A stretch of 64,000 bases of DNA from the human T2T-CHM13v2.0 reference genome, Homo sapiens. Of the stretch, positions 2,954 to 64,000 are shown one piece after another. The stretch lies in assembly GCF_009914755.1 (NCBI RefSeq), contig NC_060933.1, one strand, 5' to 3'. Each line of letters opens with the position of its first letter. Position 1 is the first letter of the stretch. A model generated the notes under the pieces. That model did not search any database. It was not told where the DNA came from and saw only the letters and a program-made list of their open reading frames with translations. Made by a program: the position numbers and the translations under genes.

Positions 2954-2968
2954 GGAATCTTCCGGAAT
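2954..2968 (+). promoter_or_regulatory. Perfect heat-shock-element motif nGAAnnTTCnnGAAn (GGAATCTTCCGGAAT); representative of about 40 copies across the window
   Basis: Parses as gGAAt-cTTCc-gGAAt. Other copies include 4268, 5076, 6344, 8616, 10300, 11831, 13495, 15206, 15406, 37311, and reverse-strand copies such as 45571, 48382, 52270. This is a motif match only; binding is not shown. Confidence 0.55.
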
Positions 2969-4639
2969 GGAATGGAATGGAATGGAATGCAATGGATTCA
3001 ACCCGATTGCAATGGAATGGAATAGAATGGAATGGAATGGAATGGAATGGAATGGAATGGAATTAAACAGAATAGAATGGAATGGAATGGAATGGAACGG
3101 AACAGAACAGAACGGAACGGAAAGGAGTGGAATGGAATGGAATGGAATTGTATGGAATGGAATGGAATGGTACGGAATAGAATGGAATGGAAAGAATTGG
3201 AATGGAATGGAATCGAATGGAATGGAATTGAATGGAATGGAATCAACCCGAGTGCAGGGGAATGTAATGGAACGGAATGCAATGGAATGGAATCATCCGG
3301 AATGGAATGGAATGGAATGGAATGGAATGGAATGGAATGGAATCAACCTGAGCGCAATGGAATGGAGTGAAATGGAATGGAATGGAATGGAGACAACCAG
3401 AATGGATTGGAATATAATGGAGTGTAAGGGAATTGAATAGAATCAATCTGAATGTAATGAAATGGAATGGAACGGAATGGAATGGAATGTAATGGAATGG
3501 AATGGAATGCAATGGAATGGAATCAACCCGAGTGCAATCGAATGGAATCGAATGGAATGGAATGCAATGGAATGGATTCAACTTGAATGGAATGGAAAGA
3601 ATGGAATCAACACGAGTGGAATGGCATGGATTGGAATGCAATGGAATGGAATCAACCCGAATATAGGGGAATGGAATGGAATGCAATGCAATGGAATGGA
3701 ATCATCCGTAATGGAATGGAAAGGAATGGAATGGAATGGAACGGAATGGAATGGAATGGAATCAACTCGATTGCAATCGAATGGAATGGAATGGAATTAA
3801 CCCGAATAGAATGGAATGGAATGGAATGGAACGGAACGGAATGGAATGGAATGGAATGGAATGGAATGGAATGGGACGGAAAGGAAGGGAATGGAACGGA
3901 ATAGAAAGGAATGGAATGGAATCAACGCGAGTGCAGGGGAATGGAATGGAATGGAATGCAATGGAATGGAATCATCCGTAATGGAATGGAATGGAAAGGA
4001 ATGGAATGGAATGGAATGGAATGGAATAGAATGGAATGGAATCAACACGATTGCAATCGAATGGAATGGAATGGAATTAACCCGAATAGAATGGAATGGA
4101 ATGGAATGGAACGGAACGGAACGGAATGGAATGGATTGGAATGGAATGGAATGGAATGGAATGGAACGGAAAGGAATGGAATGGAATGGAATGGAATGGA
4201 ATGGAATGGAATGGAATGGAATCAACGCGAGTGCAGGGGAATGGAATGGAATGGAATGCAATGGAATGGAATCTTCCGGAATGGAATGGAATGGAATGGA
4301 ATGGAAGGGAATCAACCCGAGTGCAATGGAATGGAGTGGAATGGAATGGAATGGAATGGAACAACCCGAATGGAATGGAATGTAATGGAGAGTAAGGGAG
4401 TTGAATAGAATCAATCCGAATGTAATGGAATGGAATGGAACGGAATGGAATTGAATGGAATGGAATGGAATGCAACGGAATGGAATCAACCCCATTGCAA
4501 TGGAATGGAGAGGAATGGAATGGAAACTACCCGAATGGAATGGAATGTCATGGAGTGTAAGGGAATTGAATAGAATCAATCCGAATGTAAAGGAATGGAA
4601 TGGAACGGAATGGAATGGAATGGAATGGAATGGAATGGA

Positions 4640-7100
4640 ATCAACCCGAGTGCAATCGAATGGAATCGAATTGAATGGAATGCAATGGAATGGACTCAAC
4701 TTGAATGGAATGGAAAGAATGGAATCAACACGAGTGGAATGGCATGGATTGGAATGGAATGGAATGGAATCAACCTGAGTACAGGGGAATGGAATGGAAT
4801 GGAATGCAATGGAATGGAATCATTCGTAATGGAATGGAAAGGAATGGAATGGAATGGAATGGAATGGAATGGAATGGAATGGAATCAACTCGATTGCAAT
4901 CGAATGGAATGGAATGGAATTAACCCGAATAGAATGGAATGGAATGGAATGGAATGGAACGGAATGGAATGGAATGGAATGGAATGGAATGGAATGGAAC
5001 GGAACGGAATGGAATGGAATGGAATGGAATCAACGCGAGTGCAGGGGAATGGAATGGAATGGAATGCAATGGAATGGAATCTTCCGGAATGGAATAGAAT
5101 GGAATGGAATGGAATGAAATGCAATGGATTCAACTCGATTTCAATGGAATGGAATAGAATGGAATGGAATGGAATGGAATGGAATTAATCCGAATAGAAT
5201 GGAATGGAATGGAATGGAACGGAATGGAACGGAATGGAATGGAATGGAATGGAATGGAATGGAATGGTATGGAATGGAATGGAATGGTACGGAATAGAAT
5301 GGAATGGAACGAATTGTAATGGAATGGAATTGAATGGAATGGAATGGAATGGAATGGAATCAACGCGAGTGCAGGGGAATGTAATGGAACGGAATGCAAT
5401 GGAATGGAATCATCCGGAATGGAATGGAATGGAATGGAATGGAATGGAATCAACCCGAGTGCAATGGAATGGAGTGGAATGGAATGGAATGGAATGGAAC
5501 AACCCCAATGGAATGCAATGTAATGGAGAGTAAGGGAGTTGAATAGAATCAATCCGAATGTAATGGAATGGAATGCAACGGAATGGAATGGAATGGAATG
5601 GAATGGAATGCAATGGAATGGAATCAACACGAGTACAATGGAATGGAATGGAATGGAATGGAATGGAATGGAATGGAATGGAATGATACGGAATAGAATG
5701 GAATGGAACGAAATGGAATGGAATGGAATGGAATGGAATGGAATGGAATGGAATGGAATCGTTCCGAGTGGAATAGGAGGGAATGTATTCGAGTGGAATG
5801 GAAAGGAATGGAATCAACCAGAGTGCAATGGAAGGGAATGGAATGGAATGGAAAGGAATGGAATGGAATGGATTGGAATGCAATGGAATGGAATCAACCC
5901 GAGTGCAATCGAATGGAATCAAATGGAATGGAATGCAATGGAATGGATTCAACTTGAATGGAAAGGAAAGAATGGAATCAACACGAGTGGAATGGCATGG
6001 ATTGGAATGGAATGGAATGGAATCAACCCGAGTACAGGGGAATGGAATGGAATGGAATGCAATGGAATGGAATCATCCGTAATGGAATGGAAAGGAATGG
6101 AATGGAATGGAATGGAATGGAATAGAATGGAATGGAATCAACTCGATTGAAATCGAATGGAATGGAATGGAATTAACCCGAATAGAATGGAATGGAATGG
6201 AATGGAACGGAACGGAATGGAATGGAATGGAATGGAATGGAATGGAATGGAACGGAACGGAATGGAATGGAATGGAATGGAATGGAATGGAATGGAATCA
6301 ACGCGAGTGCAGGGGAATGGAATGGAATGGAATGCAATGGAATGGAATCTTCCGGAATGGAATGGAATGGAATGGAATGGAATGAAATGCAATGGATTCA
6401 ACTCGATTGCAATGGAATGGAATAGAATGGAATGGAATGGAATGGAATGGAATTAATCCGAATAGAATGGAATGGAATGGAATGGAACGGAATGGAACGG
6501 AATGGAATGGAATGGAATGGAATGGAATGGTATGGAATGGAATGGAATGGTACGGAATAGAATGGAATGGAACGAATTGTAATGGAATGGAATTGAATGG
6601 AATGGAATGGAATCAACGCGAGTGCAGGGGAATGTAATGGAACGGAATGCAATGGAATGGAATCATCCGGAATGGAATGGAATGGAATGGAATGGAATGG
6701 AATGGAATGGAATGGAATCAACCCGAGTGCAATGGAATGGAGTGGAATGGAATGGAATGGAATGGAACAACCCGAATGGTATGGAATGTAATGGAGAGTA
6801 AGGGAGTTGAATACAATCAATCCGAATGTAATGGAATGGAATGCAACGGAATGGAATGGAATGGAATGGAATGGAATGGAATGCAATGGAATTGAATCAA
6901 CCTGAGTACAATGGAATGGAATGGAATGGAATGGAATGGAATGGAATGGAATGGAATGGAATGGAATGGAATGGAATGATACGGAATAGAATGGAATGGA
7001 ACGAAATGGAATGGAATGGAATGGAATGGAATGGAATGGAATCGTTCCGAGTGGAATAGGAGGGAATGTATTCGAGTGGAATGGAAAGGAATTGTATCAA
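4640..7100 (+). repeat. Diverged tandem duplication, period about 1.26 kb
   Basis: The same word order recurs at offsets of 1253-1293: CAACCCGAGTGCAATCG 4642/5895, CAACTTG 4697/5950, CTTCCGG 5081/6349, TAATCCG 5186/6454, CGTTCCGAG 5760/7043. A related copy lies at about 8170-9300. Confidence 0.75.
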
Positions 7101-7729
7101 CAAGAGTGGAATGGAAGGGAAGGGAATGTAATGGAAACTAATAGAATGGAATCAACCCGAGTGGAATGGAATGGAAAGTACTGGAATGGAATGGAATGGA
7201 ATGGAATCAACTCGATTGTAATGGAATGGAATGGAATGGAATGGAATGGATTGGAATGGAATGGAATTAACCCGAATACAATGGAATGGAATGGAATGGA
7301 ACGGAATGGAGTGGAATGGAATGGAATCAACCCGAGTGCAGGGGAGTGGAATGGAATAGAATGCAATGGAATGGAATCATCCGGAATGGAATGGAATGGA
7401 ATGGAATGCAAAGCAATGGAATCAACTCGATTGCAATGGAATGGAATGGAATGGAAAGGAATACATTGGAATCAACCCGAGTGGAATGGAATGGAAAGGA
7501 CTGGAATGGAGTGGAATGGAATGGAATGGAATGGAATGGAATCAACTCGATTGGAATGGAATGGAATGGAATGGAATGGAATGGAATGGAATCAACTCGA
7601 TTGCAATCGAATGGAATGGAATGGAATTAACCCGAATAGAATGGAGTGGAATGGAATGGAACGGAATGGAATGGAATGGAATGGAATGGAATGGAATGGA
7701 ATGGAATGGAATGGAATGGAATGGAATTA

Positions 7730-10700
7730 ACCCGAATAGAATGGAATGGAATGGAATGGAACGGAACGGAATGGAATGGAATGGAATGGAATGGAATGGT
7801 ATGGAATGGAATGGAATAGTACGGAATAGAATGGAATGGAACGAATTGTAATGGAATGGAATCGAATGGAATGGAATGGAATGGAATGGAATGGAATCAA
7901 CGCGAGTGCAGGGGAATGTAATGGAACGGAATGTAATGGAATGGAATCATCCGGAATGGAATGGAATGGAATGGAATGGAATGGAATGGAATGGAATCAA
8001 CCCGAGTGCAATGGAATGGAGTGGAATGGAATGGAATGGAATGGAAAAACCCGAATGGAATGGAATGTAATGGAGAGTAAGGGAGTTGAATAGAATCAAT
8101 CCGAATGTAATGGAATGGAATGCAACGGAATGGAATGGAATGGAATGGAATGGAATGCAATGGAATTGAATCAACCCGAGTGCAATAGAATGGAATCGAA
8201 TGGAATGGAATGCAATGGAATGGACTCAACTTGAATGGAATGGAAAGAATGGAATCAACACGAGTGGAATGGCATGGATTGGAATGGAATGGAATGGAAT
8301 CAACCCGAGTACAGGGGAATGGAATGGAATGGAATGCAATGGAATGGAATCATCCGTAATGTAATGGAAAGGAATGGAATGGAATGGAATGGAATGGAAT
8401 GGAATGGAATGGAGTCAACTCGATTGCAATCGAATGGAATGGAATGGAATTAACCCGAATAGAATGGAATGGAATGGAATGGAATGGAACGGAACGGAAT
8501 GAAATGGAATGGAATGGAATGGAATGGAACGGAACGGAATGGAATGGAATGGAATGGAATGGAATGGAATCAACGCGAGTGTAGGGGAATGGAATGGAAT
8601 GGAATGTAATGGAATGGAATCTTCCGGAATGGAATGGAATGAAATGGAATGGAATGAAATGCAATGGATTCAACTCGATTGCAATGGAATGGAATAGAAT
8701 GGAATGGAATGGAATGGAATTAATCCGAATAGAATGGAATGGAATGGAATGGAACGGAATGGAACGGAATGGAATGGAATGGAATGGTATGGAATGGAAT
8801 GGAATGGTATGGAATAGAATGGAATGGAACGAATTGTAATGGAATGGAATTGAATGGAATGGAATGGAATGGAATGGAATCAATGCGAGTGCAAGGGAAT
8901 GTAATGGAACGGAATGCAATGGAATGGAATCATCCGGAATGGAATGGAATGGAATGGAATGGAATGGAATGGAATGGAATCAACCCGAGTGCAATGGAAT
9001 GTAACGGAGAGTAAGGGAGTTGAATAGAATCAATCCGAATGTAATGGAATGGAATGCAACGGAATGGAATGGAATGGAATGGAATGGAATGGAATGGAAT
9101 GGAATGCAATGGAATTGAATCAACCCGAGTACAATGGAATGGAATGGAATGGAATGGAATGGAATGGAATGATACGGAATAGAATGGAATGGAACGAAAT
9201 GGAATGGAATGGAATGGAATGGAATGGAATGGAATGGAATGGAATCGTTCCGAGTGGAATAGGAGGGAATGTATTCGAGTGGAATGGAAAGGAATGGTAT
9301 CAACCAGAGTGGAATGGAAGGGAATGGAATGGAATGGAAACTAATAGAATGGAATCAACCCGAGTGGAATGGAATGGAAAGGATTGGAATGGAATGGAAT
9401 AGAATGGAATCAACTCGATTGTAATGGAATGGAATGGAATGGAATGGAATTAACCCGAATACATTGGAATGGAATGGAATGGAGCGGAATGGAGTGGAAT
9501 GGAATGGAATCAACACGAGTGCAGGGGAATGGAATGGAATGGAATGCAATGGAATGGAATCATCCGGAATGGAATGGAATGGAATGGAATGCAAAGCAAT
9601 GGAATCAACTCGATTGCAATGGAATGGAATGGAATGGAAAGGAATACATTGGAATCAACCCGAGTGGAATGGAATGGAAAGGACTGGAATGGAGTGGAAT
9701 GGAATGGAATGGAATGGAATGGAATCAACTCGATTGGAATGGAATGGAATGGAATGGAATGGAATTAACCCGAATAGAATGGAATGGAATGGAATGGAAC
9801 GGAACGGAACGGAATGGAATGGAATGGAATGGAATGGAATGGAATGGAATCAACCCGACTGCAGGGGAATGGAATGGAATGGAATGCAATGGAATGGATT
9901 CAACTTCAATGGAATGGAAAGAATGGAATCAACACGAGTGGAATGGCATGGATTGGAATGGAATGGAATGGAATCAACCCGAGTACAGGGGAATGGAATG
10001 GAATGGAATGCAATGGAATGGAATCATCCGTAATGGAATGGAATGGAAAGGAATGGAATGGAATGGAATGGAATGGAATAGAATGGAATGGAATCAACAC
10101 GATTGCAATCGAATGGAATGGAATGGAATTAACCCGAATAGAATGGAACGGAATGGAATGGATTGGAATGGAATGGAATGGAATGGAATGGAACGGAAAG
10201 GAATGGAATGGAATGGAATGGAATGGAATGGAATGGAATGGAATGGAATGGAATCAACGCGAGTGCAGGGGAATGGAATGGAATGGAATGCAATGGAATG
10301 GAATCTTCCGGAATGGAATGGAATGGAATGGAATGGAATGGAATCAACCCGAGTGCAATGGAATGGAGTGGAATGGAATGGAATGGAATGGAACAACCCG
10401 AATGGAATGGAATGTAATGGAGAGTAAGGGAGTTGAATAGAATCAATCCGAATGTAATGGAATGGAATGGAACGGAATGGAATTGAATGGAATGGAATGG
10501 AATGCAACGGAATGGAATCAACCCCATTGCAATGGAATGGAGAGGAATGGAATGGAAACTACCCGAATGGAATGGAATGTAATGGAGTGTAAGGGAATTG
10601 AATAGAATCAATCCGAATGTAAAGGAATGGAATGGAATGGAATGGAATGGAATGGAATGGAATGGAATGGAATCAACCCGAGTGCAATCGAATGGAATCG

Positions 10701-13700
10701 AATTGAATGGAATGCAATGGAATGGACTCAACTTGAATGGAATGGAAAGAATGGAATCAACACGAGTGGAATGGCATGGATTGGAATGGAATGGAATGGA
10801 ATCAACCTGAGTACAGGGGAATGGAATGGAATGGAATGCAATGGAATGGAATCATTCGTAATGGAATGGAAAGGAATGGAATGGAATGGAATGGAATGGA
10901 ATGGAATGGAATCAACTCGATTGCAATCGAATGGAATGGAATGGAATTAACCCGAATAGAATGGAATGGAATGGAATGGAACGGAACGGAATGGAATGGA
11001 ATGGAATGGAATGGAATGGTATGGAATGGAATGGAATAGTACGGAATAGAATGGAATGGAACGAATTGTAATGGAATGGAATCGAATGGAATGGAATGGA
11101 ATGGAATGGAATGGAATCAACGCGAGTGCAGGGGAATGTAATGGAACGGAATGTAATGGAATGGAATCATCCGGAATGGAATGGAATGGAATGGAATGGA
11201 ATGGAATGGAATCAACCCGAGTGCAATGGAATGGAGTGGAATGGAATGGAATGGAATGGAAAAACCCGAATGGAATGGAATGTAATGGAGAGTAAGGGAG
11301 TTGAATAGAATCAATCCGAATGTAATGGAATGGAATGCAACGGAATGGAATGGAATGGAATGGAATGGAATGCAATGGAATTGAATCAACCCGAGTGCAA
11401 TAGAATGGAATCGAATGGAATGGAATGCAATGGAATGGACTCAACTTGAATGGAATGGAAAGAATGGAATCAACACGAGTGGAATGGCATGGATTGGAAT
11501 GGAATGGAATGGAATCAACCCGAGTACAGGGGAATGGAATGGAATGGAATGCAATGGAATGGAATCATCCGTAATGTAATGGAAAGGAATGGAATGGAAT
11601 GGAATGGAATGGAATGGAATGGAATGGAGTCAACTCGATTGCAATCGAATGGAATGGAATGGAATTAACCCGAATAGAATGGAATGGAATGGAATGGAAT
11701 GGAACGGAACGGAATGAAATGGAATGGAATGGAATGGAATGGAACGGAACGGAATGGAATGGAATGGAATGGAATGGAATGGAATCAACGCGAGTGTAGG
11801 GGAATGGAATGGAATGGAATGTAATGGAATGGAATCTTCCGGAATGGAATGGAATGAAATGGATTGGAATGAAATGCAATGGATTCAACTCGATTGCAAT
11901 GGAATGGAATAGAATGGAATGGAATGGAATGGAATTAATCCGAATAGAATGGAATGGAATGGAATGGAACGGAATGGAACGGAATGGAATGGAATGGAAT
12001 GGTATGGAATGGAATGGAATGGTATGGAATAGAATGGAATGGAACGAATTGTAATGGAATGGAATTGAATGGAATGGAATGGAATGGAATGGAATCAACG
12101 CGAGTGCAAGGGAATGTAATGGAACGGAATGCAATGGAATGGAATCATCCGGAATGGAATGGAATGGAATGGAATGGAATGGAATGGAATGGAATCAACC
12201 CGAGTGCAATGGAATGTAACGGAGAGTAAGGGAGTTGAATAGAATCAATCCGAATGTAATGGAATAGAATGCAACGGAATGGAATGGAATGGAATGGAAT
12301 GGAATGGAATGGAATGGAATGCAATGGAATTGAATCAACCCGAGTACAATGGAATGGAATGGAATGGAATGGAATGATACGGAATAGAATGGAATGGAAC
12401 GAAATGGAATGGAATGGAATGGAATGGAATGGAATGGAATGGAATCGTTCCGAGTGGAATAGGAGGGAATGTATTCGAGTGGAATGGAAAGGAATGGTAT
12501 CAACCAGAGTGGAATGGAAGGGAATGGAATGGAATGGAAACTAATAGAATGGAATCAACCCGAGTGGAATGGAATGGAAAGGATTGGAATGGAATGGAAT
12601 AGAATGGAATCAACTCGATTGTAATGGAATGGAATGGAATGGAATGGAATTAACCCGAATACATTGGAATGGAATGGAATGGAGCGGAATGGAGTGGAAT
12701 GGAATGGAATCAACACGAGTGCAGGGGAATGGAATGGAATGGAATGCAATGGAATGGAATCATCCGGAATGGAATGGAATGGAATGGAATGCAAAGCAAT
12801 GGAATCAACTCGATTGCAATGGAATGGAATGGAATGGAAAGGAATACATTGGAATCAACCCGAGTGGAATGGAATGGAAAGGACTGGAATGGAGTGGAAT
12901 GGAATGGAATGGAATGGAATGGAATCAACTCGATTGGAATGGAATGGAATGGAATGGAATGGAATTAACCCGAATAGAATGGAATGGAATGGAATGGAAC
13001 GGAACGGAACGGAATGGAATGGAATGGAATGGAATGGAATGGAATGGAATCAACCCGACTGCAGGGGAATGGAATGGAATGGAATGCAATGGAATGGATT
13101 CAACTTCAATGGAATGGAAAGAATGGAATCAACACGAGTGGAATGGCATGGATTGGAATGGAATGGAATGGAATCAACCCGAGTACAGGGGAATGGAATG
13201 GAATGGAATGCAATGGAATGGAATCATCCGTAATGGAATGGAATGGAAAGGAATGGAATGGAATGGAATGGAATGGAATAGAATGGAATGGAATCAACAC
13301 GATTGCAATCGAATGGAATGGAATGGAATTAACCCGAATAGAATGGAACGGAATGGAATGGATTGGAATGGAATGGAATGGAATGGAATGGAACGGAAAG
13401 GAATGGAATGGAATGGAATGGAATGGAATGGAATGGAATGGAATGGAATCAACGCGAGTGCAGGGGAATGGAATGGAATGGAATGCAATGGAATGGAATC
13501 TTCCGGAATGGAATGGAATGGAATGGAATGGAATGGAATCAACCCGAGTGCAATGGAATGGAGTGGAATGGAATGGAATGGAATGGAACAACCCGAATGG
13601 AATGGAATGTAATGGAGAGTAAGGGAGTTGAATAGAATCAATCCGAATGTAATGGAATGGAATGGAACGGAATGGAATTGAATGGAATGGAATGGAATGC

Positions 13701-14180
13701 AACGGAATGGAATCAACCCCATTGCAATGGAATGGAGAGGAATGGAATGGAAACTACCCGAATGGAATGGAATGTAATGGAGTGTAAGGGAATTGAATAG
13801 AATCAATCCGAATGTAAAGGAATGGAATGGAACGGAATGGAATGGAATGGAATGGAATGGAATGGAATGGAATGGAATCAACCCGAGTGCAATCGAATGG
13901 AATCGAATTGAATGGAATGCAATGGAATGGACTCAACTTGAATGGAATGGAAAGAATGGAATCAACACGAGTGGAATGGCATGGATTGGAATGGAATGGA
14001 ATGGAATCAACCTGAGTACAGGGGAATGGAATGGAATGGAATGCAATGGAATGGAATCATTCGTAATGGAATGGAAAGGAATGGAATGGAATGGAATGGA
14101 ATGGAATGGAATGGAATGGAATCAACTCGATTGCAATCGAATGGAATGGAATGGAATTAACCCGAATAGAATGGAATGGA
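7730..14180 (+). repeat. Near-identical tandem duplication, 2 copies of about 3.2 kb (about 7730-10950 and 10950-14180)
   Basis: Rare variants are shared at 3195-3220 offset: GGAAAAACCCG (8043/11258), GTAACGGAGAG (9001/12216), GGAGCGGAAT (9481/12681), CAACCCCATTGC (10519/13714), CATTCGTAAT (10853/14048). ORF-track pairs 9434/12634 and 8235/11450 are identical. Confidence 0.9.
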
Positions 14181-40570: not shown

Positions 40571-40650
40571 CCATTCCGTTCCGTTCCGTTCCGTTCCGTT
40601 CCGTTCCGTTCCATTCCGTTCCGTTCCGTTCCGTTCCGTTCCGTTCCGTT
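40571..40650. repeat. (CCGTT)n variant-pentamer expansion: [CCATT(CCGTT)7] x2
   Basis: Seven CCGTT units at 40576-40610, one CCATT, then seven CCGTT at 40616-40650. Confidence 0.9.
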
Positions 40651-46600: not shown

Positions 46601-48329
46601 TTCCATTCCATTCCCCTGTACTCGGGTTGATTCCATTCCATTCCATTCCAATCCATGCCCTTCCACTCGTGTTGATTTCATTCTTTCCATTCCATTCTAG
46701 TTGAATCCATTCCATTGCATTCCATTCCATTCGATTCCATTCGATTGCACTCGGGTTGATTCCATTCCATTGCATTCCATTCCATTCCATTCCATTCCAT
46801 TCCTTTCCATTCCATTCCATTACATTCGGATTGATTCTATTCAACTCCCTTACTCTCCATTACATTCGATTCCATTTGGGTTGTTCCATTCCATTCCATT
46901 CCATTCCACTCCATTCCATTGCACTCGGGTTGATTCCATTACATTCCATTCCATTCCGGAAGATTCCATTCCATTGCATTACATTACATTCCATTCCCCT
47001 GCACTCGCGTTGATTCCATTCCTTTCCATTCCATTCCATTCCATTCCATTCCGTTCCGTTCCACTCCATTCCATTCCATTCCATTCCATTTCGTTCCGTT
47101 CCATTCCATTCCATTTCATTCTATTCGGGTTAATTCCATTCCATTCCATTCGATTGCCATCGAGTTGATTCCATTCCATTCCATTCCATTCCATTCCATT
47201 CCATTCTATTCCATTCCATTGCAATCGAGTTGAATCCATTGCCTTTCATTCCATTCCATTCCATTCCATTCCATTCCGTAAGATTCCATTCCATTACATT
47301 CCATTCCATTCCATTCCCCTGCACTCGCGTTGATTCCATTCCATTCCATTCCATTCCATTCCGTTCCGTTCCATTCCATTCCATTCCATTCCTTTCCGTT
47401 CCATTGCATTCCATTCCATTCTATTCGGGTTAATTCCATTCCATTCCATTCGATTGCCATCGAGTTGATTCCATTCCATTCCATTCCATTCCATTCCATT
47501 CCATTCCATTCCATTCCTTTCCATTCCATTACGGATGACTCCATTCCATTGCTTTCCATTCCATTCCATTCCCCTGTACTCTGGTTGATTCCATTCCATT
47601 CCATTCCACTCCATTCGGTTCCGTTGCATTCCCTTGTATTGCATTCCATTCTAATCGGGTTAATTCCATTCCATTCGATTCCATTCCATTCCATTCCATT
47701 CCATTGCAATGGAGTTGATTCCATTCCATTCCATTCCACTTCATTCCATTGCAATCCATTCCAATCCATTCCATTCCATTCCATTCCACTCGAGTTGACT
47801 TCATTCCATTCCTTTCCATTCCATTCCATTCCTTTCCACTCGAGTTGATTCCATTCCATTCCAATCCATTGCATTCCATTCCATGCCATTCCACTCGGGT
47901 TGATTCCATTCCTTTGCATTCCATTCCATTCCATTCCATTGCATTCCATTCCATTCCATTCCGTTGCATTCCATTCCATTACATTCGGATTGATTCTATT
48001 CAACTCCCTTACTCTCCATTACATTCCATTCCATTCGGGTTGTTCCATTCCATTCCATTCCATTCCACTCCATTCCATTGCACTCGGGTTGATTCCATTC
48101 CATTCCATTCCATTCCATTCCGGATGATTCCATTCCATTGCATTCCGTTCCATTACATTCCCCTGCACTCGCGTTCATTCCATTCCATTCCATTCCATTC
48201 CATTCAATTCCATTCCATTACAATTCGTTCCATTCCATTCTATTCCGTACCATTCCATTCCTTTCCATACCATTCCATTCCATTCCATTCCATTCCATTC
48301 CGTTCCATTCCGTTCCATTCCATTCCATT

Positions 48330-51300: not shown

Positions 51301-54300
51301 CCACTCGGGTTGATTCCATTCCCTTCTTTCCACTCCATTACATTCCCTTCCATTCCACTCGGAATGATTGATTCCATTCCATTCCATTCCATTTCATTCC
51401 ATTGCAATCCATTCCAATGCATTCCATTCCATTCCATTCCACTCGAGTTGACTTCATTCCATTCCTTTCCATTCCATTCCATTCCTTTCCACTCGAGTTG
51501 ATTCCATTCCATTCCAATCCATTGCAATCCGTTCCATGCCATTCCACTCGGGTTGATTCCATTCCTTTGCATTCCATTCCATTCCATTCCATTGCATTCC
51601 ATTCCATTCCATCCCGTTGCATTCCATTCCATTACATTCGGATTGATTCTATTCAACTCCCTTACTCTCCATTACATTCCATTCCATTCGGGTTGTTCCA
51701 TTCCATTCCATTCCATTCCACTCCATTCCATTGCACTCGGGTTGATTCCAATCCATTCCATTCCATTCCATTCCATTCCGGATGACTCCATTCCATTGCA
51801 TTCCGTTCCATTACATTCCCCTGCACTCGAGTTGATACCATTCCATTCCATTCCATTCCATTCCGGATGATTCCATTCCATTGCATTCCATTCCATTCCA
51901 TTCCCCTGCACTCGGGTTGATTACATTCCATTTCTTTCCCTTCCATTCCTTTCCATTCCATTCCATTCCATTCTATTCGGGTGAATTCCATTCCATTCCA
52001 TTCCATTCCATTCCATTCCATTGCAATCGAGTTGATTCCATTCCATTCCATTGCATTCCGTTCTAGATGATTCCATTCCATTCCATTCCATTCCATTCCA
52101 TTCCCCTGCAGTCGGGTTGATTCCATTCCATTCCATTCCATTCCATTCCATTCCATTCCATTCCATTCCATTCCGTTCCGTTCCGTTCCGTTCCGTTCCA
52201 TTCCGTTCCATTCCATTCCATTCCATACTATTCGGGTTAATTCCATTCCATTCCATTCCATTCCATTCCATTCCGGAAGATTCCATTCCATTGCATTCTA
52301 TTCCATTCCATTCCCCTGCACTCGCGTTGATTCCATTCCATTCCATTCCATTCCATTCCGTTCCGTTCCATTCCATTCCATTCCATTCCATTCCGTTCCG
52401 TTCCATTCCATTCCATTCCATTCTATTCGGGTTAATTCCATTCCATTGCATTCGATTGCAATCGTGTTGATTCCATTCTATTCCATTCCATTCCATTCCA
52501 TTCCATTCCTTTCCATTCCATTACGGATGATTCCATTCTATTGCATTCCATTCCATTCCATTCCCCTGTACTCCGGTTGATTCCATTCCATTGCATTCCA
52601 ATCCATACCCTTCCACTCGTGTTGATTTCATTCTTTCCATTCCATTCAAGTTGAATCCATTCCATTGCATTCCATTCCATTCGATTCCATTCGATTGCAC
52701 TCGGGTTGATTCCATTCCATTGCATTCCATTCCATTCCATTCCATTCCATTCCATTCCGTTCCATTCCATTCCATTACATTCGGATTGATTCTATTCAAT
52801 TACCTTACAATCCATTACATTCCATTCCATTCGGGTAGTTTCCATTCCATTCCATTCCATTCCTCTCCATTCCATTGCACTCCGGTTGATTCCATTCCAT
52901 TGCATTCCATTCCATTCCATTCAATTCCATTCCGTTCCATTCCATTCCATTACATTCGGATTGATTCTATTCAACTCCCTTACTCTCCATTACATTCCAT
53001 TCCGTTCGGGTTGCTCCATTCCATTCCATTCCATTCCACTCCATTCCATTGCACTCGGGTTTATTCCATTCCATTCCATTCCATTCCATTCCATTCCATT
53101 CCATTCCATTCCGGAAGATTCCATTCCATTGCATTCCATTCCATTCCATTCCCCTGCACTCGCGTTGATTCCATTCCATTCCATTCCATTCCATTCCATT
53201 CCATTCCATTCCATTCCATTCCTTTCCGTTCCATTCCATTCCATTCCATTCCATTCCATTCCGTTCCGTTCCGTTCCGTTCCATTCCATTCCATTCCATT
53301 CCATTCTATTCGGGTTAATTCCTTTCCATTCCATTCGATTGCAATCGAGTTGATTCCATTCCATTCCATTCCATTCCATTCCTTTCCATTCCATTCCATT
53401 CCATTCCTTTCCATTCCATTACAGATGATTCCATTCCATTGCATTCCATTCCATTCCATTCCCCTGTACTCGGGTTGATTCCATTCCATTCCATTCCAAT
53501 CCATGCCATTCCACTCGTGTTGATTCCATTCTTTCCATTCCATTCAAGTTGAATCCATTCCATTGCATTCCATTCCATTCCATTCCCCTGCAGTCGGGTT
53601 GATTCCATTCCATTCCATTCCATTCCATTCCATTCCGTTCCGTTCCGTTCCGTTCCGTTCCGTTCCATTCCATTCCATTCCATTCTATTCGGGTTAATTC
53701 CATTCCATTCCATTCCATTCCATTCCATTCCAATCGAGTTGATTCCATTCCATTCCATTCCATTCCATTCCATTCCACTCCATTCCAGTCCTTTCCATTC
53801 CATTACACTCGGGTTGATTCCAATGTATTCCTTTCCATTCCATTCCATTCCATTGCAATCAAGTTGATTCCATTGCTTTGCATTCCATTCCATACCACTC
53901 CATTCCGGATGATTCCATTCCATTGCATTCCATTCCATTCCATTCCCCTGCACTCGGGTTGATTCCATTCCATTCCACTCCATTCCGTTCCATTCCATTC
54001 CATTCCATTGTATTTGGGTTAATTCCAGTCCATTCCATTCCATTGCATTCCATTCCATTCCATTCCATTCCATTCCATTACAATCAAGTTGATTCCATTC
54101 CATTCCATTCCATTCCATTCCAGTCCTTTCCATTCCATTCCACTCAGGTTGATTCCATTCTATTAGTTTCCATTCCATTCCATTCCCTTCCATTCCACTC
54201 TGGTTGATTCCATTCCTTTCCATTCCAGTCGAATACGTTCCCTCCTATTCCACTCGGAACGATTCCATTCCATTCCATTCCATTCCATTCCATTCCATTC

Positions 54301-55750
54301 CATTCCAGTTCTTTCCATTCCGTTCTATTCCGTACCATTCCATTCCATTCCATTCCTTTCCATTCCATTCCTTTCCACTCGTGTTGATTCCATTCCTTTC
54401 CATTCCATTCGGTTTGAAGGCATTCCATTCCACTCAATTTCATTCCATTCCATTCCATTCCATTCCATTCCATTCTATTCCATTCCATTGCAATCGAGTT
54501 GAATCCATTGCCTTTCATTCCATTCCATTCCATTCCATTCCGGAAGATTCCATTCCATTGCATTCCATTCCATTCCATTCCCCTGCACTCGCGTTGATTC
54601 CATTCCATTCCATTCCATTCCATTCCGTTCCGTTCCATTCCATTCCATTCCATTCCATTCCATTCCGTTCCGTTCCATTCCATTGCATTCCATTCTATTC
54701 TGGTTAATTCCATTCCATTCCATTCGATTGCCATCGAGTTGATTCCATTCCATTCCATTCCATTCCATTCCATTCCATTCCATTCCATTCCTTTCCATTC
54801 CATTACGGATGACTCCATTCCATTGCATTCCATTCCATTCCATTCCCCTGTACTCGTGTTGATTCCATTCCATTCCATTCCACTCCATTCGGTTCCGTTG
54901 CATTCCATTCTATTGCATTCCATCTATTCGGGTTAATTCCATTCCATTCTATTCCATTCCATTCCATTCCATTCCATTGCAATGGAGTTGATTCCATTCC
55001 ATTCCATTCCATTCCGGATGATTCCATTGCATTGCATTCCATTCCATTCCATTCCCCTGCACTCGTTTTGATTCCATTCCCTTCCATTCCATTCCATTCC
55101 GTCCCATTCCATTCCATTCCATTCTATTCCGGTTAATTCCATTCCATTCCATTCCATTCCATTCCATTCCATTCCATTGCAATCGAGTTGATTCCATTCC
55201 ATTCCTTTCCATTCCATTCCATTGCCTTGCATTCCACTCGGGTTGATTCCATTCCCTTCTTTCCACTCCATTACATTCCCTTCCATGATTGATTCCATTC
55301 CATTGCATTCCATTGCAATCCATTCCAATCCATTCCATTCCATTCTATTCCACTCGAGTTGACATTATTCCATTCCTTTCCATTCCATTCCATTCCTTTC
55401 CACTCGAGTTGATTCCATTCCATTCCAATCCATTGCATTCCATTCCATGCCATTCCACTCGGGTTGATTCCATTCCTTTGCATTCCATTCCATTCCATTC
55501 CATTCCATTCCATTTCATTCCATTCCGTTGCATTCCATTCCATTACATTCGCATTGATTCTATTCAAATCCCTTACTCTCCATTACATTCCATTCCATTC
55601 GGGTTGTTCCATTCCATTCCATTCCATTCCACTCCATTCCATTGCACTCGGGTTGATTCCATTTCATTCCATTCCATTCCATTCCGTTCCATTCCGGATG
55701 ATTCCATTCCATTGCATTCCGTTCCATTACATTCCCCTGCACTCGCGTTG
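48330..55750 (-). repeat. Diverged tandem duplication, period about 3.9 kb (about 48330-51830 and 52230-55750)
   Basis: Shared variants at 3870-3935 offset: CGGATGATTCCATTCTATTGC (48641/52524), TTGCTCC (about 49133/53011), GGTTTGAAGGC (50493/54411), 1-nt deletion CCATCTATT (about 50992/54920), GATGATTCCATTGCATTGC (about 51089/55017). Confidence 0.8.
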
Positions 55751-58700
55751 ATTCCATTCCATTCCATTCCTTTCCATTCAATTCCATTCCATTACAATTC
55801 GTTCCATTCCATTCTACTCCGTACCATTCCATTCCATTCCATACCATTCCATTCCATTCCATTCCATTCCATTCCATTCCATTCCATTACGGATGATTGC
55901 ATTCCATTGCATTCCATTCCATTCCATTCAATTCCATTCCGTTCCATTCCATTCCATTACATTCGGATTGATTCTATTCAACTCCCTTACTCTCCATTAC
56001 ATTCGATTCCATTCGGGTTGTTCCATTCCATTCCATTCCATTCCACTCCATTCCATTGCACTCGGGTTGATTCCATTCCATTCCATTGCATTCCGGAAGA
56101 TTCCATTCCATTACATTCCATTACATTCCATTCCCCTGCACTCGCGTTGATTCCATTCCATTCCATTCCATTCCATTCAATTCCATTCCTTTCCGTTCCA
56201 TTCCATTCCATTCCATTCCGTTCCGTTCCGTTCCGTTCCGTTCCATTCCATTCCATTCCATTCCATTCTATTCGGGTTAATTCCATTCCATTCCATTCGA
56301 TTGCAATCGAGTTGATTCCATTCCATTCCATTCCATTCCATTCCATTCCATTCCATTCCTTTCCATTCCATTACGGATGATTCCATTCCATTGCATTCCA
56401 TTCCATTCCATTCCCCTGTACTCGGGTTGATTCCATTCCATTCCATTCCAATCCATGCCATTCCACTCGTGTTGATTCCATTCTTTCCATTCCATTCAAG
56501 TTGAATCCATTCCATTGCATTCCATTCCATTCGATTCCATTCGATTGCACTCGGATTGATTCCATTCCATTGCACTCCATTCCATTCGATTTCATTCCAT
56601 TCCATTCCTTTCCATTCCATTCCATTCCATTCCATTCCATTGCAATCGAGTTGATTACATTCCATTCCTTTCAATTCCATTCCATTGCCTTGCATTCCAC
56701 TCTGGTTGATTCCATTCCCTTATTTCCACTCCATTACATTCCCTTCCATTCCACTCGGAATGATTGATTCCATTCGATTCCATTCCATTTTATTCCATTG
56801 CAATCCATTCCAATCCATTCCATTCCATTCCATTCCACTCGAGTTGATTTCATTCCATTCCTTTCCATTCCATTCCATTCTTTTCCACTCGAGTTGATTC
56901 CATTCCATTCCATTCCATTGCATTCCATTCCATGCCATTCCACTCGGGTTGATTCCATTCCATTCCATTCCATTCCATTCCATTCCATTCCATTGCATTC
57001 CATTCCATTCCTTTCCCCTGCACTCGGGTTGATTCCATTCCATTCCATTCCCTTTAATTCCATTCCATTCCATTCCATTCCATTCCAATCCGTTCCATTC
57101 CATTCCATTCTATTCCATTGCAATCGACTTGATTCCATTCCATTCCATTCCATTCCATTCCATTCCATTCCATTTTGTTCCAATCCATTCTATTCCGAAC
57201 CATTCCATTGCATTCCATTCCATTCCATTCCATTCCATTCCATTCCATGCCATTCCACTCGGGTTGATTCCATTCCTTTCCATTCCATTCGGGTAGAATC
57301 CAATCCACTCCATTCCATTCCTTTCGAATCCATTCCATTGCACTCGGGTTGATTCCATTCCATTCCATTCCATTCGATTCCATTCCATTCCATTCCATTC
57401 CGTTCGATTCCATTTCATTACATTCAGATTGATTCTATTCAATTCCCTTGCACTCCATTATATTCCAATCCATTCTGGTTGTTTCCATTCCATTCCATTC
57501 CATTTCACTCCATTCCATTGCACTCGGTTTGATTCCCTTCCATTCCATTCCATTCCATTCCGGATGATTCCATTCCATTGCATTCCATTCCATTCCATTC
57601 CCGTGCACTCAGGTTGATTCCATTCCATTCCATTCCACTTCATTCGGTTCCGTTACATTCCATTCTATTGCATTCCATTCTATTCGGGTTAATTCCATTC
57701 CATTCTGTTCCATTCCATTCCATTCCATTCCATTGCAATGGAGTTGATTCCATTCCATTCCATTCCATTCCGGATGATTCCATTCCATTGCATTCCATTC
57801 CATTCCATTCCCCTGCTCTCGTGTTGATTCCATTACCTTCCATTCCATTCCATTCCGTTCCATTCCATTGCATTCCATTCTATTCCTGTTAATTCCATTC
57901 CATTCCATTCCATTCCATTCCATTCCATTCCATTGCAATCGAGTTGTTTCCATTCCATTCCTTTCCATTCCATTCCATTGCCTTGCATTCCAATCGGGTT
58001 GATTCCATTCCCTTCTTTCCACTCCATTACATTCCCTTTCATTCCACTCGGAATGATTGATCCCATTCCATTCCATTCGATTTCATTCCGTTGCAATCCA
58101 TTCCAATCTATTCCATTCCATTCCATTCCACTCGAGTTGATTTCATTCCATTCCTTTCCATTCCATTCCATTCCTTTCCACTCGAGTTGATTCCATTCCA
58201 TTCCATTCCATTGCATTCCATTCCATGCCATTCCACTCGGGTTGATTCCATTCCTTTGCATTCCATTCCATTCCATTCCATTCCATTCCATTCCATTCCA
58301 TTCCGTTGCATTCCATTCCATTACATTCGGATTGATTCTATTCAACTCCCTTACTCTCCATTACATTCCATTCCATTCGGGTTATTCCATTCCATTCCAT
58401 TCCATTCCACTCCATTCCATTGCACTCGGGTTGATTCCATTCCATTCCATTCCATTCCATTCCATTCCATTCCGGATGATTCCATTCCATTGCATTCCGT
58501 TCCATTACATTCCCCCGCACTCGCGTTGATTCCATTCCATTCCATTCCATTCCGTTCAATTCCATTCCATTACAATTCGTTCCATTCCATTCTATTCCGT
58601 ACCATTCCATTCCATTCCATACCATTCCATTCCATTCCATTCCATTCCATTCCATTCCATTCCGTTCCATTCCGTTCCATTCCATTCCATTCCATTCTAT

Positions 58701-59639
58701 TCGGGTTAATTCCATTCCATTCCATTCTATTCCATTCCATTGCAATCGAGTTGAATCCATTGCATTTCATTCCATTCCATTCCATTGCATTCCATTCCGG
58801 AAGATTCCATTCCATTGCATTCCATTCCATTCCATCTCCCTGCACTCGCGTTGATTCCATTCCATTCCATTCCATTCCATTCCATTCCATTCCGTTCCGT
58901 TCCGTTTCGTTCCGTTCCGTTCCATTCCATTCCATTCCATTCCATTCCGTTCCGTTCCATTCCATTCCATTCCATTCTATTCGGGTTAATTCCATTCCAT
59001 TCCATTCGATTGCAATCGTGTTGATTCCATTCCATTCCATTCCATTCCATTCCATTCCATTCCATTCCATTCCTTTCCATTCCATTACGGATGATTCCAT
59101 TCCATTGCATTCCATTCCATTCCATTACCCTGTACTCGGGTTGATTCCATTCCATTGCATTCCAATCCATGCCCTTCCACTCGTGTTGATTCCATTCTTT
59201 CCATTCCATTCAAGTTGAATCCATTCCATTGCATTCCATTCCATTCGATTCCATTCGATTGCACACTGGTTGATTCCATTCCATTGCTTTCCATTCCATT
59301 CCATTCCATTCCATTCCATTCCGTTCCTTTCCATTCTATTACATTCGGATTGATTCTATTCAATTCCCTTACACTCCATTACATTCCATTCCATTCGGGT
59401 AGTTTCCATTCCATTCCATTCCATTCCTCTCCATTCCATTGCACTCGGGTTGATTCCATTCCATTGCATTCCGTTCCATTCCATTCCATTCAATTCCATT
59501 CCGTTCCATTCCATTCCATTACATTCGGATTGATTCTATTCAACTCCCTTAGTCTCCATTACATTCCATTCCATTCGGGTTGTTCCATTCCATTCCATTC
59601 CATTCCACTCCATTCCATTGCACTCGGGTTTATTCCATT

Positions 59640-61480
59640 CCATTCCATTCCATTCCATTCAATTCCATTCCATTCTGGAAGATTCCATTCCATTGCATTC
59701 CATTCCATTCCATTCCCCTGCACTCGCGTTGATTCCATTCCATTCTATTCCATTCCATTCCATTCCATTCCTTTCCGTTCCATTCCATTCCATTCCATTC
59801 CACTGCATTCCGTTCCGTTCCGTTCCATTCCATTCTATTCCATTCTATTCGGGTTAATTCCATTCCATTCCATTCGATTGCAATCGAGTTGATTCCATTC
59901 CATTCCATTCCATTCCATTCCATTCCATTCCATTCCATTCCATTCCATTCCTTTCCATTCCATTACGGATGATTCCATTCCATTGCATTCCATTCCATTC
60001 CATTCCCCTGTACTCGGGTTGATTCCATTCCATTCCATTCCAATCCATGCCATTCCACTCGTGTTGATTCCATTCTTTCCATTCCATTCAAGTTGCATCC
60101 ATTCCATTGCATTCCATTCCATTCCATTCCCCTGCAGTCAGGTTGATTCCATTCCATTCCATTCCATTCCATTCCATTCCATTCCATTCCAATCAATTCC
60201 ATTCCATTCCATTCCATTCCATTCCATTCCATTCCATTCCACTCCATTCCAGTCCTTTCCATTCCATTCCACTCGGGTTGATTCCAATGTATTCCTTTCC
60301 ATTCCTTTCCATTCCATTGCAATCGAGTTGATTCCATTGTTTTGCATTCCATTCCATTCGATTCCGGATGATTCCATTCCATTGCATTGCATTGCATTCC
60401 ATTCCCCTGCACTCGGGTTTATTCCATTCCATTCCACTCCATTCCGTTCCATTCCGTTCCATTGCATTCCATTCCATTGTATTCGGGTTAATTCCATTCC
60501 ATTCCATTCCATTCCACTCCATTCCATTGCACTCGGGTTGATTCCATTCCATTCCATTCCATTCCATTCAATTCCATTCCATTCTGGAAGATTCCATTCC
60601 ATTGCATTCCATTCCATTCCATTCCCCTGCACTCGCGTTGATTCCATTCCATTCCATTCCATTCCATTCCATTCCATTCCATTCCTTTCCGTTCCATTCC
60701 ATTCCATTCCATTCCATTCCATTCCATTCCATTCCGTTCCGTTCCGTTCCATTCCATTCTATTCCATTCTATTCGGGTTAATTCCATTCCATTCCATTCG
60801 ATTGCAATCGAGTTGATTCCATTCCATTCCATTCCATTCCATTCCATTCCATTCCATTCCATTCCTTTCCATTCCATTACGGATGATTCCATTCCATTGC
60901 ACTCCATTCCATTCCATTCCCCTGTACTCGGGTTGATTCCATTCCATTCCATTCCAATCCATGCCATTCCACTCGTGTTGATTCCATTCTTTCCATTCCA
61001 TTCAAGTTGAATCCATTCCATTGCATTCCATTCCATTCCATTCCCTTGCAGTCAGGTTGATTCCATTCCATTCCATTCCATTCCATTCCATTCCATTCCA
61101 TTCCGTTCCGTTCCATTCCATTCCATTCCTTTCTATTCGGGTTAATTCCATTCCATTCCATTCCATTCCATTCCATTCCATTCCAATCAATTTGATTCCA
61201 TTCCATTCCATTCCATTCCATTCCATTCCATTCCACTCCATTCCAGTCCTTTCCATTCCATTCCACTCGGGTTGATTCCAATGTATTCCTTTCCATTCCT
61301 TTCCATTCCATTGCAGTCGAGTTGATTCCATTGCTTTGCATTCCATTCCATTCCATTCCGGATGATTCCATTCCATTGCATTGCATTCCATTCCATTCCC
61401 CTGCACTCGGGTTGATTCCATTCCATTCCACTCCATTCCGTTCCATTCCATTCCATTCCATTGTATTCGGGTTATTTCCA
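59640..61480 (-). repeat. Tandem duplication, period about 0.91-0.99 kb
   Basis: ATTCAATTCCATTCCATTCTGGAAG at about 59657/60566; CAGTCAGGTTG at 60135/61049; CCAATGTATTCCTTTCCATTCCTTTCC at 60284/about 61278. Confidence 0.8.
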
Positions 61481-64000
61481 TTCCATTCCATTCCATTCCA
61501 TTCTATTCCATTCCATTACAATCGAGTTGATTCCATTCCATTCCATTCCATTCCATTCCAGTCCTTTCCATTCCATTCCACTCGGGTTGATTCCATTCTA
61601 TTAGTTACCATTCCATTCCATTCCCTTCCATTCCACTCTGGTTGCTTCCATTCCTTTCCATTCCACTCGAATACAATCCCTCCTATTCCACTCGGAACGA
61701 TTCCATTCCATTCCATTCCATTCCATTCCATTCCATTCCATTCCATTTCGTTCCATTCCATTCCATTCCGTATCATTCCATTCCATTCCATTCCATTCCA
61801 TTCCATTCCATTCCATTGTACTCGGGTTGATTCCATTCCATTGCATTCCATTCCATTCCATTCCATTCCATTCCATTCCGTTGCATTCCATTCCATTACA
61901 TTCGGATTGATTCTATTCAACTCCCTTACTCTCCATTACATTCCATTCCATTCGGGTTGTTCCATTCTATTCCATTCCATTCCACTCCATTCCATTGCAC
62001 TCGGGTTGATTCCATTCCATTCCATTCCGGATGATTCCATTCCATTGCATTCCGTTCCATTTCATTCCCCTGCACTCGCGTTGATTCCATTCCATTCCAT
62101 TCCATTACATTACATTCCATTCCATTACAATTCGCTCCATTCCATTCTATTCCGTACCATTCCATTCCATTCCATACCATTCCATTCCATTCCATTCCGT
62201 TCCATTCCGTTCCATTCCATTCCATTCCATTCTATTCGGATTAATTCCATTCCATTCCATTCCATTCCATTCTATTCCATTCCATTGCAATCGAGTTGAA
62301 TCCATTGCATTTCATTCCATTCCATTCCATTCCATTCCGGAAGATTCCATTCCATTGCATTCCGTTCCATTACATTCCCCTGCACTCGCGTTGATTCCAT
62401 TCCATTCCATTCCATTCCATTCCATTCAATTCCATTCCGTTCCGTTCCATTCCATTCCATTCCATTCCATTCCATTCCGTTCCGTTCCGTTCCGTTCCAT
62501 TCCATTCCATTCCATTCTATTCGGGTTAATTCCATTCCATTCCATTCGATTGCAATCGAGTTGATTCAATTCCATTCCATTCCATTCCATTCCATTCCGT
62601 TCCATTCCATTCCTTTCCATTCCATTACGGATGATTCCATTCCATTGCATTCCATTCCATTCCATTCCCCTGTACTCGGGTTGATTCCATTCCATTCCAT
62701 TCCAATCCATGCCATTCCACTCGTGTTGATTCCATTCTTTCCATTCCATTCAAGTTGAATCCATTCCGTTGCATTCCATTCCATTCGATTCCATTCGATT
62801 GCACTCGGGTTGATTCCATTCCATTGCATTCCATTCCATTCCATTCCATTCCATTCCATTCCATTCCATTCTTTTCCATTCCATTTCATTACATTCAGAT
62901 TGATTCTATTCAATTCCCTTACACTCCATTATATTCCAATCCATTCTGGTTGTTTCCATTCCATTCCATTCCATTTCACTCCATTCCATTTCACTCGGGT
63001 TGATTCCATTCTATTCCATTCCATTGCATTCCATTCCATTCCATTCTGGATGATTCCATTCCATTGCATTCCTTTCCATTCCATTCCCCTGCACTCGGGT
63101 TGATTCCATTCCATTCCTTTCCATTACATTCCGTTCCATTCCATTCCATTCCATTCGGATTGATTCTATTCAATTCCCTTACACTCCATTACATTCCATT
63201 CCATTTGGGTAGTTTCCTTTCCATTCCATTCCATTCCTCTCCATTCCATTGCACTCGGGTTGATTCCATTGCATTCCATTCCATTCCATTACATTGCATT
63301 ACATTACATTCCGTTCCATTGTACTCGGGTTGATTCCATTCCATTGCATTCCATTCCATTCCATTCCATTCCATTCCATTCCATTCCATTCCATTCCGTT
63401 CCATTCCATTACATTCGGATTGATTCTATTCAACTCCCTAACTCTCCATTCCATTCCATTCCATTCCATTCAATTCCATTCCGTTCCATTCCATTCCATT
63501 ACATTCGGATTGATTCTATTCAACTCCCTTACTCTCCATTACATTCGATTCCATTCGGGTTGTTGCATTCCATTCCATTCCATTCCACTCCATTCCATTG
63601 CACTCGGGTTGATTCCATTCCATTCCATTCCATTCCGGAATATTCCATTCCATTACATTCCATTACATTCCATTCCCCTGCACTCGTGTTGATTCCATTC
63701 CATTCCATTCCATTCCATTCCATTCAATTCCATTCCTTTCCGTTCCATTCCATTCCATTCCATTCCGTTCCGTTCCATTCCATTCCATTACATTCGGATT
63801 GATTCAATTCTATTCCCTTACACTCCATTACATTCCATTCCATTCGGGTAGTTTCCATTCCATTCCATTCCATTCCTCTCCTTTCCATTGCACTCGGGTT
63901 GATTCCATTCCATTGCATTCCATTCCATTCCATTCAATTCCATTCCGTTCCATTCCATTCCATTACATTCGGATTGATTCTATTCAACTCCCTTACTCTC

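What the first reader, a model, noticed from the sequence alone, without database searches (positions are those of the whole stretch)
2954..63646. A recurrent variant word is a perfect canonical heat-shock element, tiling the array roughly every 1.5 kb
Seen: plain (GGAAT)n gives only direct nGAAn repeats, but GGAAT-CTTCC-GGAAT supplies the inverted unit, giving nGAAnnTTCnnGAAn. I counted about 25 copies on the left arm by eye (2954 to 37311) and a similar density on the right. Several mutated copies keep the consensus (GGAATATTCCGGAAT 19150, 26489, 63632; ATTCTGGAAGATTCC about 59672 and 60581; ATTCCTGAAGATTCC about 40383). Others break it (CTTAC about 19993, CTTGC about 35790), and the sister word CATCC is one mismatch away. 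Established: HSF1 binds inverted nGAAn arrays and is recruited to SatIII to form nuclear stress bodies and drive SatIII lncRNA. Inference: these words could be high-affinity HSF1/HSF2 nucleation sites, each containing a methylatable CCGG.
Basis: partly seen in the sequence, partly recalled or inferred. Interest (0 to 1): 0.7.

Follow-up and report, generated by a model that had tools for sequence, protein, structure and literature searches.

The report
Heat-shock elements in chromosome 9 satellite
One 15-letter variant of the chromosome 9 satellite repeat matches the heat-shock factor binding site perfectly and occurs 12,700 times in the genome, probably almost all in this one array, so it likely supplies the landing sites that make chromosome 9 a main place where nuclear stress bodies form.

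Summary
Observation confirmed. The window is chr9 satellite 3 and holds 44 perfect three-unit heat-shock elements (25 left arm, 19 right), 36 of them the exact word GGAATCTTCCGGAAT; low-order nulls give about 1. The word has 12,700 copies genome-wide, none listed on chr1-8, and 20 chr9 samples extrapolate to 12,696, so it is probably close to chr9-exclusive. It is 17% of all perfect three-unit HSE matches in the genome. The Y array carries three different perfect words; chr15, chr17 and chr16 samples (24 kb) had none. The two known primary stress-body loci therefore look like the two big carriers of perfect HSEs. HSEs in satellite 3 are already in print in general terms (9q12 unpublished remark, four per Y unit, motif enrichment plus HSF1 ChIP-seq on T2T), but I did not find this word, its count or its chr9 restriction. 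Binding, high affinity and methylation control are untested. A published motif scan does not single out chr9, no copy has a fourth unit, and the test for selection is suggestive but inconclusive. New member of a known kind; it makes an old question testable.

The parts
6..37693 (+). Left block of the chr9 HSat3 array, GGAAT on the + strand
   Evidence: Tandem Repeats Finder, period 5, 73% matches
37706..63970 (-). Right block of the array, GGAAT on the - strand
   Evidence: Tandem Repeats Finder, period 5, 74% matches
2954..37325 (+). 25 perfect three-unit HSEs (15 bp each), starts: 2954, 4268, 5076, 6344, 8616, 10300, 11831, 13495, 15206, 15406, 16259, 17876, 18861, 19150, 21845, 23044, 25210, 26200, 26489, 29159, 30807, 32545, 33318, 35126, 37311
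   Evidence: 23 exact, 2 with ATTCC middle
40383..63646 (-). 19 perfect three-unit HSEs, + strand starts: 40383, 40878, 42905, 42970, 44209, 45571, 46953, 48382, 49225, 50614, 52270, 53108, 54537, 56090, 58794, 59672, 60581, 62334, 63632
   Evidence: 13 exact, 6 variants at free positions
19988..20002 (+). Broken copy (CTTAC); its duplicate starts at 27322
35785..35799 (+). Broken copy (CTTGC)
47273..47287 (-). Broken copy (CTTAC on the G-rich strand)
237..63970 (.). 54 copies of the sister word with CATCC middle, one mismatch from the HSE and its likely ancestor
37689..37710 (.). Strand switch (inversion junction) inside a short near-palindrome with 9-base arms
16865..29370 (+). Near-tandem duplication: about 16.9-22.0 kb repeated at an offset of about 7.33 kb, duplicating several HSE and broken copies

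Best explanation
GGAAT-CTTCC-GGAAT is a perfect three-unit heat-shock element that likely arose by one A-to-T change in the chr9 satellite's CATCC module, was likely spread by duplications to 12,700 copies, and likely serves as the main sequence-specific landing site for HSF1 trimers on 9q12. Shown: the match, the count, the even strewing along the array (19 of 20 samples positive), its fixed orientation on the G-rich strand, its link to one upstream word. Inferred: near-exclusive chr9 location; one trimer per word, with about 14,000 perfect sites plus one-mismatch sisters in 27.6 Mb raising local HSF1 concentration enough to seed a stress body and recruit Pol II; the Y array does the same with three unrelated words, while arrays with only one-mismatch sites (chr15) would be secondary sites. 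Untested: binding, affinity rank, any effect of CpG methylation, any selection.
For: 44 perfect HSEs in the window against about 1 expected. 12,700 exact copies, reversed-pattern control 3; listings for both orientations start on contig 9 and listings run in contig order. 92 exact and 103 perfect HSEs in 20 x 10 kb across chr9 49.1-76.5 Mb extrapolate to 12,696 (10,050-15,340) and 14,214. GGAAT-preceded perfect HSEs: 24,315, only 40 rows on chr1-8; the + strand excess of 9,391 fits two Y words. 3 of 3 GGAAT-rich Y samples hold 3 HSEs each; 0 in 4 chr15, 1 chr17 and 1 chr16 samples, chr15 holding one-mismatch sites only. 9q12 and Yq12 are the primary HSF1 targets (PMC7889540). 43 of 44 copies have the preferred pyrimidine-purine step between TTC and GAA (preference from PMC8379338). 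HSF1 ChIP-seq tracks motif density in HSat3 (bioRxiv 2024.10.22.616524). Heat-induced RNA maps across the whole chr9 array (PMC11622622). 33 of 44 copies follow the word CAACGCGAGT and none CAACCCGAGT, while the sister follows both (14 and 17 of 54).
Against: No binding data for this word. No copy has a fourth alternating unit. The published JASPAR HSF1 scan gives chr9 blocks about 10-fold enrichment, Y about 16, the chr15 A5 array 18.6 and small A1 arrays mostly 13-47, so a weight matrix does not single out chr9. HSF1 bound a 158-bp chr9 SatIII probe whose nGAAn arrangement was called non-canonical (PMC2173303), and a crystal structure on head-to-tail SatIII repeats is cited. HT1080 cells form bodies on Y, not chr9. 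A chr5 HSat3 sample holds a related perfect HSE (2 in 4 kb, picked around known hits; 6 rows over about 190 kb). 13 of 23 non-chr9 samples missed GGAAT satellite, so chr10, 13, 14, 20, 21 and 22 arrays are unsampled; an older map also places subfamily B5 reads on chr13, 14, 20, 22. SatIII is also induced without HSF1 under osmotic stress.
Confidence: 0.6

Rival explanations
1. HSF1 loads on chr9 through the mass of weak sites (one-mismatch sisters and plain head-to-tail GGAAT) plus cooperativity, condensation and array size; the perfect word is a passenger that binds somewhat better but is not needed.
For: One-mismatch sites outnumber perfect ones 98 to 44 in the window and 228 to 103 in the chr9 samples; sister word 20,563 copies. 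In vitro binding to a non-canonical chr9 probe; structure on head-to-tail SatIII cited. Weight-matrix enrichment is broad across HSat3 subfamilies. The background supplies two of three units for free, so one substitution makes the site.
Against: Binding to that probe needed over 12.5 ng HSF1 against over 3 ng for an HSE. ChIP signal follows motif density, not pentamer density. The large chr15 array has abundant GGAAT and one-mismatch sites but no perfect site in 16 kb and is not named among the primary sites.
Confidence: 0.3
2. Locus choice is set by chromatin state, unusual DNA structure or a cofactor, not by duplex HSE reading; the word, if bound at all, could serve another factor (its other strand carries CCGGAAG, recalled as an ETS-type core).
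For: HSF1 shifted only slower-migrating, possibly structured forms of the chr9 probe. HT1080 chr9 is not used in vivo although it binds HSF1 in vitro; a cofactor was proposed.
Against: Cold HSE competes for the probe. ETS motifs are mostly not enriched in HSat3. Both primary loci carry perfect HSEs by unrelated words.
Confidence: 0.1

Closest known systems
Perfect HSEs in the Y-chromosome SatIII unit DYZ1 / HSat3A6 (PMC7889540; passages and Discussion read)
   Same: Canonical HSEs strewn through a GGAAT satellite at a primary stress-body locus; four reported per 3564-bp unit, three found here per 4-kb sample; similar density (about 0.75 per kb against 0.5).
   Different: Other words, other chromosome; HSF1 ChIP was shown near one Y site, none for the chr9 word. 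The chr9 sites are essentially one word.
Putative HSEs at 9q12 (review PMC9032817, section read)
   Same: States that putative HSEs lie over SATIII stretches of 9q12.
   Different: An unpublished observation with no sequence; says the number of sites is unknown. Here: word, count and distribution.
HSF1 motifs in T2T HSat3 (bioRxiv 10.1101/2024.10.22.616524 = PMC11526998; abstract, sections 5 and 13, passages, header and HSF rows of media-2.csv read; figures not seen)
   Same: HSF1 motif enrichment in nearly all 235 chr9 B5 blocks; HSF1 ChIP-seq follows motif density.
   Different: Weight-matrix scan; the text read does not name the word, does not separate perfect from one-mismatch sites and does not rank chr9 first. 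Figure 2b, not seen, may show these sites.
HSF1 binding to pHuR98, chr9 SatIII (PMC2173303; passages and section 8 read)
   Same: Direct HSF1 binding to chr9 satellite III DNA, competed by HSE.
   Different: Argued that the nGAAn arrangement is non-canonical and favoured secondary structure; the complete array does hold canonical elements.
Canonical three-site HSE bound by an HSF trimer (PMC8379338; passages read)
   Same: Three alternating inverted nGAAn, pyrimidine-purine step between TTC and GAA.
   Different: Promoter-type context; here G rather than A precedes each GAA and the step is a CpG in heterochromatin.

Membership tests
Canonical heat-shock element | At least three contiguous alternating inverted nGAAn units | tested here: met
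   44 matches; definition from PMC8379338
Canonical heat-shock element | Preferred pyrimidine-purine step between TTC and the next GAA | tested here: met
   CG 41, CA 2, AG 1 of 44
Canonical heat-shock element | Favoured base before GAA (purine; A in most strong sites, recalled) | tested here: inconclusive
   G before all three GAA in the exact word; purine favoured over C; affinity cost of G against A not found in the papers read
Extended HSE for two cooperating trimers | Four or more alternating units | tested here: not met
   0 four-unit elements in the window; a GAA falls in register after a one-unit gap in 42 of 44
Functional HSE | Bound by HSF1 or HSF2 in vitro or in cells | not testable with these tools
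   No ChIP reads or binding assay available; only array-level published evidence
Functional HSE | Confers heat-induced transcription | not testable with these tools
   Array-wide induction is published; the word's part is untested
Functional HSE | Core positions conserved more than free positions, relative to a neutral control | tested here: inconclusive
   Genome-wide, core position 9 changed in 284 against 12,700 exact (2.2%), sister 1,054 against 20,563 (5.1%); free position 6: 3.3% against 1.4%; free position 10: 4.2% against at most 4.8%. But copies are duplicates, distinct alleles show no clear difference (5:6 against 10:9) and the ratio ranks 5th of 15 words
Human satellite 3, chr9 array (HSat3B5) | Degenerate (GGAAT)n array in the chr9 pericentric block | tested here: met
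   window lies inside the span labelled hSat3_9_3(B5) in PMC11622622
Human satellite 3, chr9 array (HSat3B5) | Subfamily assignment by diagnostic 24-mers | not tested
   label taken from the papers, not recomputed

The most novel reading that the evidence does not exclude
The choice of primary stress-body loci is written in sequence: chr9 and Y independently acquired perfect HSE words and together hold over a third of all perfect three-unit HSEs in the genome (about 14,200 + 14,700 of 76,189). The chr9 word is kept by selection, methylation of its central CpG gates HSF1 loading, and person-to-person differences in array size tune how much active HSF1 is soaked up during stress.
Probability: 0.15. 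Interest if true: 0.8.

Novelty: new member of a known kind. Interest (0 to 1): 0.5.

Why it matters
Since 2002 it has been open what HSF1 reads on chromosome 9 satellite III and why this array and the Y array, rather than other GGAAT satellites, form primary nuclear stress bodies; a 2022 review says the number of sites is unknown. A single word with a one-base sister as built-in control turns that into a k-mer count on existing ChIP-seq data and a three-oligo binding assay. If right, one array holds about 19% of the genome's perfect three-unit HSE matches (about 23% without Y) at some 33 times background density, a large sink for the master stress regulator.

Tried and rejected
Strict 1.5-kb periodicity: rejected, gaps run 65-2704. 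A perfect fold-back palindrome around the strand switch: rejected, no dominant inverted diagonal. Conservation in the window as proof of function: rejected; 8 keeping against 4 breaking copies include duplicates, 2 of the 8 are CpG transitions at free positions, and plain pentamers also spare their AA (79 and 41 changes against 320, 625, 324 at the other positions). Position-10 control for the sister on the + strand: unusable, swamped by a Y word, so only the - strand was used. Sampling other arrays at recalled coordinates: 13 of 23 stretches held no GGAAT satellite. Literature: the word itself searched as text gave 147 papers, none of the 25 listed about satellites; the top hit was a crystallin promoter primer. 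Searches and passages of PMC13634412, bioRxiv 2026.02.12.705659, bioRxiv 2025.06.15.659631 (HSE there means something else) and PMC12771815 gave no description of the word. No paper on methylation of an HSE CpG among 6 listed; one search gave nothing useful on base preference. Three papers wanted were not held.
Full report
Observation. The window is two opposed blocks of (GGAAT)n satellite that switch strand at about 37.7 kb. It holds 44 perfect nGAAnnTTCnnGAAn elements, 25 on the left block and 19 on the right, all reading GAA-TTC-GAA on the G-rich strand; 36 are GGAATCTTCCGGAAT. Four broken copies and 54 CATCC sisters are also present. 41 of 44 contain CCGG. Spacing is more even than random (CV 0.47 against 0.96) but not periodic. 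Low-order nulls give about 1 match; high-order Markov chains reproduce the count because they learn the word. The count therefore shows amplification of one word, not repeated invention.

Origin. 33 of 44 copies follow the upstream word CAACGCGAGT and none follows CAACCCGAGT, while the sister follows both (14 and 17 of 54). The simplest reading (inference) is one A-to-T change in a sub-lineage of the CATCC module, then spread by duplication; a 7.3-kb duplication in the window copies both intact and broken words. The satellite supplies two of the three units, so a single change suffices.

Genome-wide distribution. The exact word has 12,700 copies (6,460 +, 6,240 -; reversed control 0 and 3). 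Only the first 100 places are listed per search; lists run in contig order, and for both orientations they start on contig 9, so none is listed on chr1-8. Twenty 10-kb samples from chr9 49.1 to 76.5 Mb gave 92 exact words and 103 perfect HSEs, 19 of 20 samples positive. Scaled to 27.6 Mb (length from PMC10505914 and PMC12771815 passages) that is 12,696 words (95% interval 10,050-15,340) and about 14,200 HSEs. So most, probably nearly all, copies are on chr9; up to about a fifth elsewhere on chr10-22, X or Y is not excluded. All perfect three-unit matches number 76,189 (reversed control 43,994): the word is 16.7% of them, and chr9 array density is about 0.5 per kb against about 0.015 elsewhere.

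Other arrays. Of 23 samples off chr9, 10 hit GGAAT satellite and 13 missed. Three Y samples each hold three perfect HSEs of unrelated sequence; one of these words has 4,895 copies, listed once on chr5 and then on contig 24. Four chr15 samples (16 kb), one chr17 and one chr16 sample hold none; chr15 has a recurrent one-mismatch site. A chr5 sample chosen around known hits holds two copies of a related perfect word. Perfect HSEs preceded by GGAAT number 24,315, with only 40 rows on chr1-8; the + strand excess (9,391) fits two Y words, and the rest fits chr9. The arrays of chr10, 13, 14, 20, 21 and 22 were not sampled successfully.

Selection. Genome-wide, change of the core C of TTC is seen in 284 copies (2.2% of the exact count; 15 of the first 100 rows lie off chr9) against 1,054 (5.1%) for the sister in the same three-base context; a free position shows the reverse (424, 3.3% against 285, 1.4%), and the free CpG position is similar (531, 4.2% against at most 4.8% on the usable strand, which includes about two dozen chr7 rows). 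In 264 kb of chr9, core against free changes are 10:18 for the word and 38:24 for the sister after leaving out 112 copies of an established sister subfamily (p 0.039 on copies). The direction fits selection, but copies are not independent, distinct alleles are 5:6 against 10:9, only one core position was counted genome-wide, and the word ranks 5th of 15 recurrent words. Inconclusive.

Mechanism. Established: HSF trimers bind three alternating nGAAn units, preferring a pyrimidine-purine step between TTC and GAA (PMC8379338, passages); 43 of 44 copies have it, and it is the CpG. 9q12 and Yq12 are the primary HSF1 targets (PMC7889540), heat-induced RNA covers the whole chr9 array (PMC11622622) and is mostly G-rich (PMC2241877). 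Inferred: each word docks one trimer, and the density of sites seeds the body. Against: no four-unit site; in vitro binding to a non-canonical chr9 probe, possibly through structure (PMC2173303); HT1080 cells ignore chr9; a weight-matrix scan gives chr9 about 10-fold, Y about 16, chr15 A5 18.6 and small A1 arrays mostly 13-47. I put the landing-site reading at 0.6, the weak-site mass reading at 0.3, structure or cofactor at 0.1. Methylation control is a bare possibility; no paper on it was listed.

Novelty. Satellite-borne HSEs are known: four per Y unit with ChIP nearby, putative 9q12 HSEs as an unpublished remark with the number unknown, HSE-like sequences scattered in HSat3, HSF1 motif enrichment and ChIP on T2T. 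In ten library searches and the passages read I did not find this word, its count, its chr9 restriction, or the perfect-site contrast between chr9/Y and chr15. Figures (notably Fig. 2b of the preprint and Fig. 4A of PMC2173303), the supplement of PMC7889540, subscription papers and three papers not held could contain some of it. Verdict: real, a new member of a known kind, interest 0.5 because it makes a 2002 question directly testable.

Noticed in passing
window 37689-37710: The strand switch falls inside a near-palindrome with 9-base arms formed from the array's own CAAC-CGAG word, suggesting inversion by microhomology. G-rich strands point towards the junction, so G-rich transcripts would converge there. 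Many strand blocks are already catalogued (235 chr9 B5 blocks in the table).
   Followed up: partly
L012 about 9.5 kb and L013 about 5.2 kb (chr9 65.0 and 66.5 Mb): Two further strand switches share one junction sequence in opposite orientation, different from the window's, so inversion junctions are themselves duplicated.
   Followed up: partly
window 16865-22030 and about 24190-29370; also 22.6-24.1 kb at offset 7.76 kb: Recent near-tandem duplications of about 7.3 and 7.8 kb offset.
   Followed up: partly
L025, L029, L030 (chrY): Three different perfect HSEs per unit in fixed order, plus 8-10 one-mismatch sites per 4 kb; Y total about 14,700, close to the chr9 total.
   Followed up: partly
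L033 and chr5 49.72-49.91 Mb: The small chr5 HSat3 array holds a related perfect word (CTTCC-CGAAT, 6 rows) and 14 listed copies of the broken CTTAC form.
   Followed up: partly
all exact copies, C-rich strand: The word also reads CCGGAAG on its other strand, recalled as an ETS-family core; flanks look sub-optimal. Not tested.
   Followed up: no
window 19150, 26489, 63632: These variants share their first ten bases with the HSP70 promoter HSE probe printed in PMC2173303.
   Followed up: no
chr9 samples and window: A third family member ending in GTAAT (112 copies in 264 kb) is tied to a different upstream word and is two mismatches from the HSE.
   Followed up: partly
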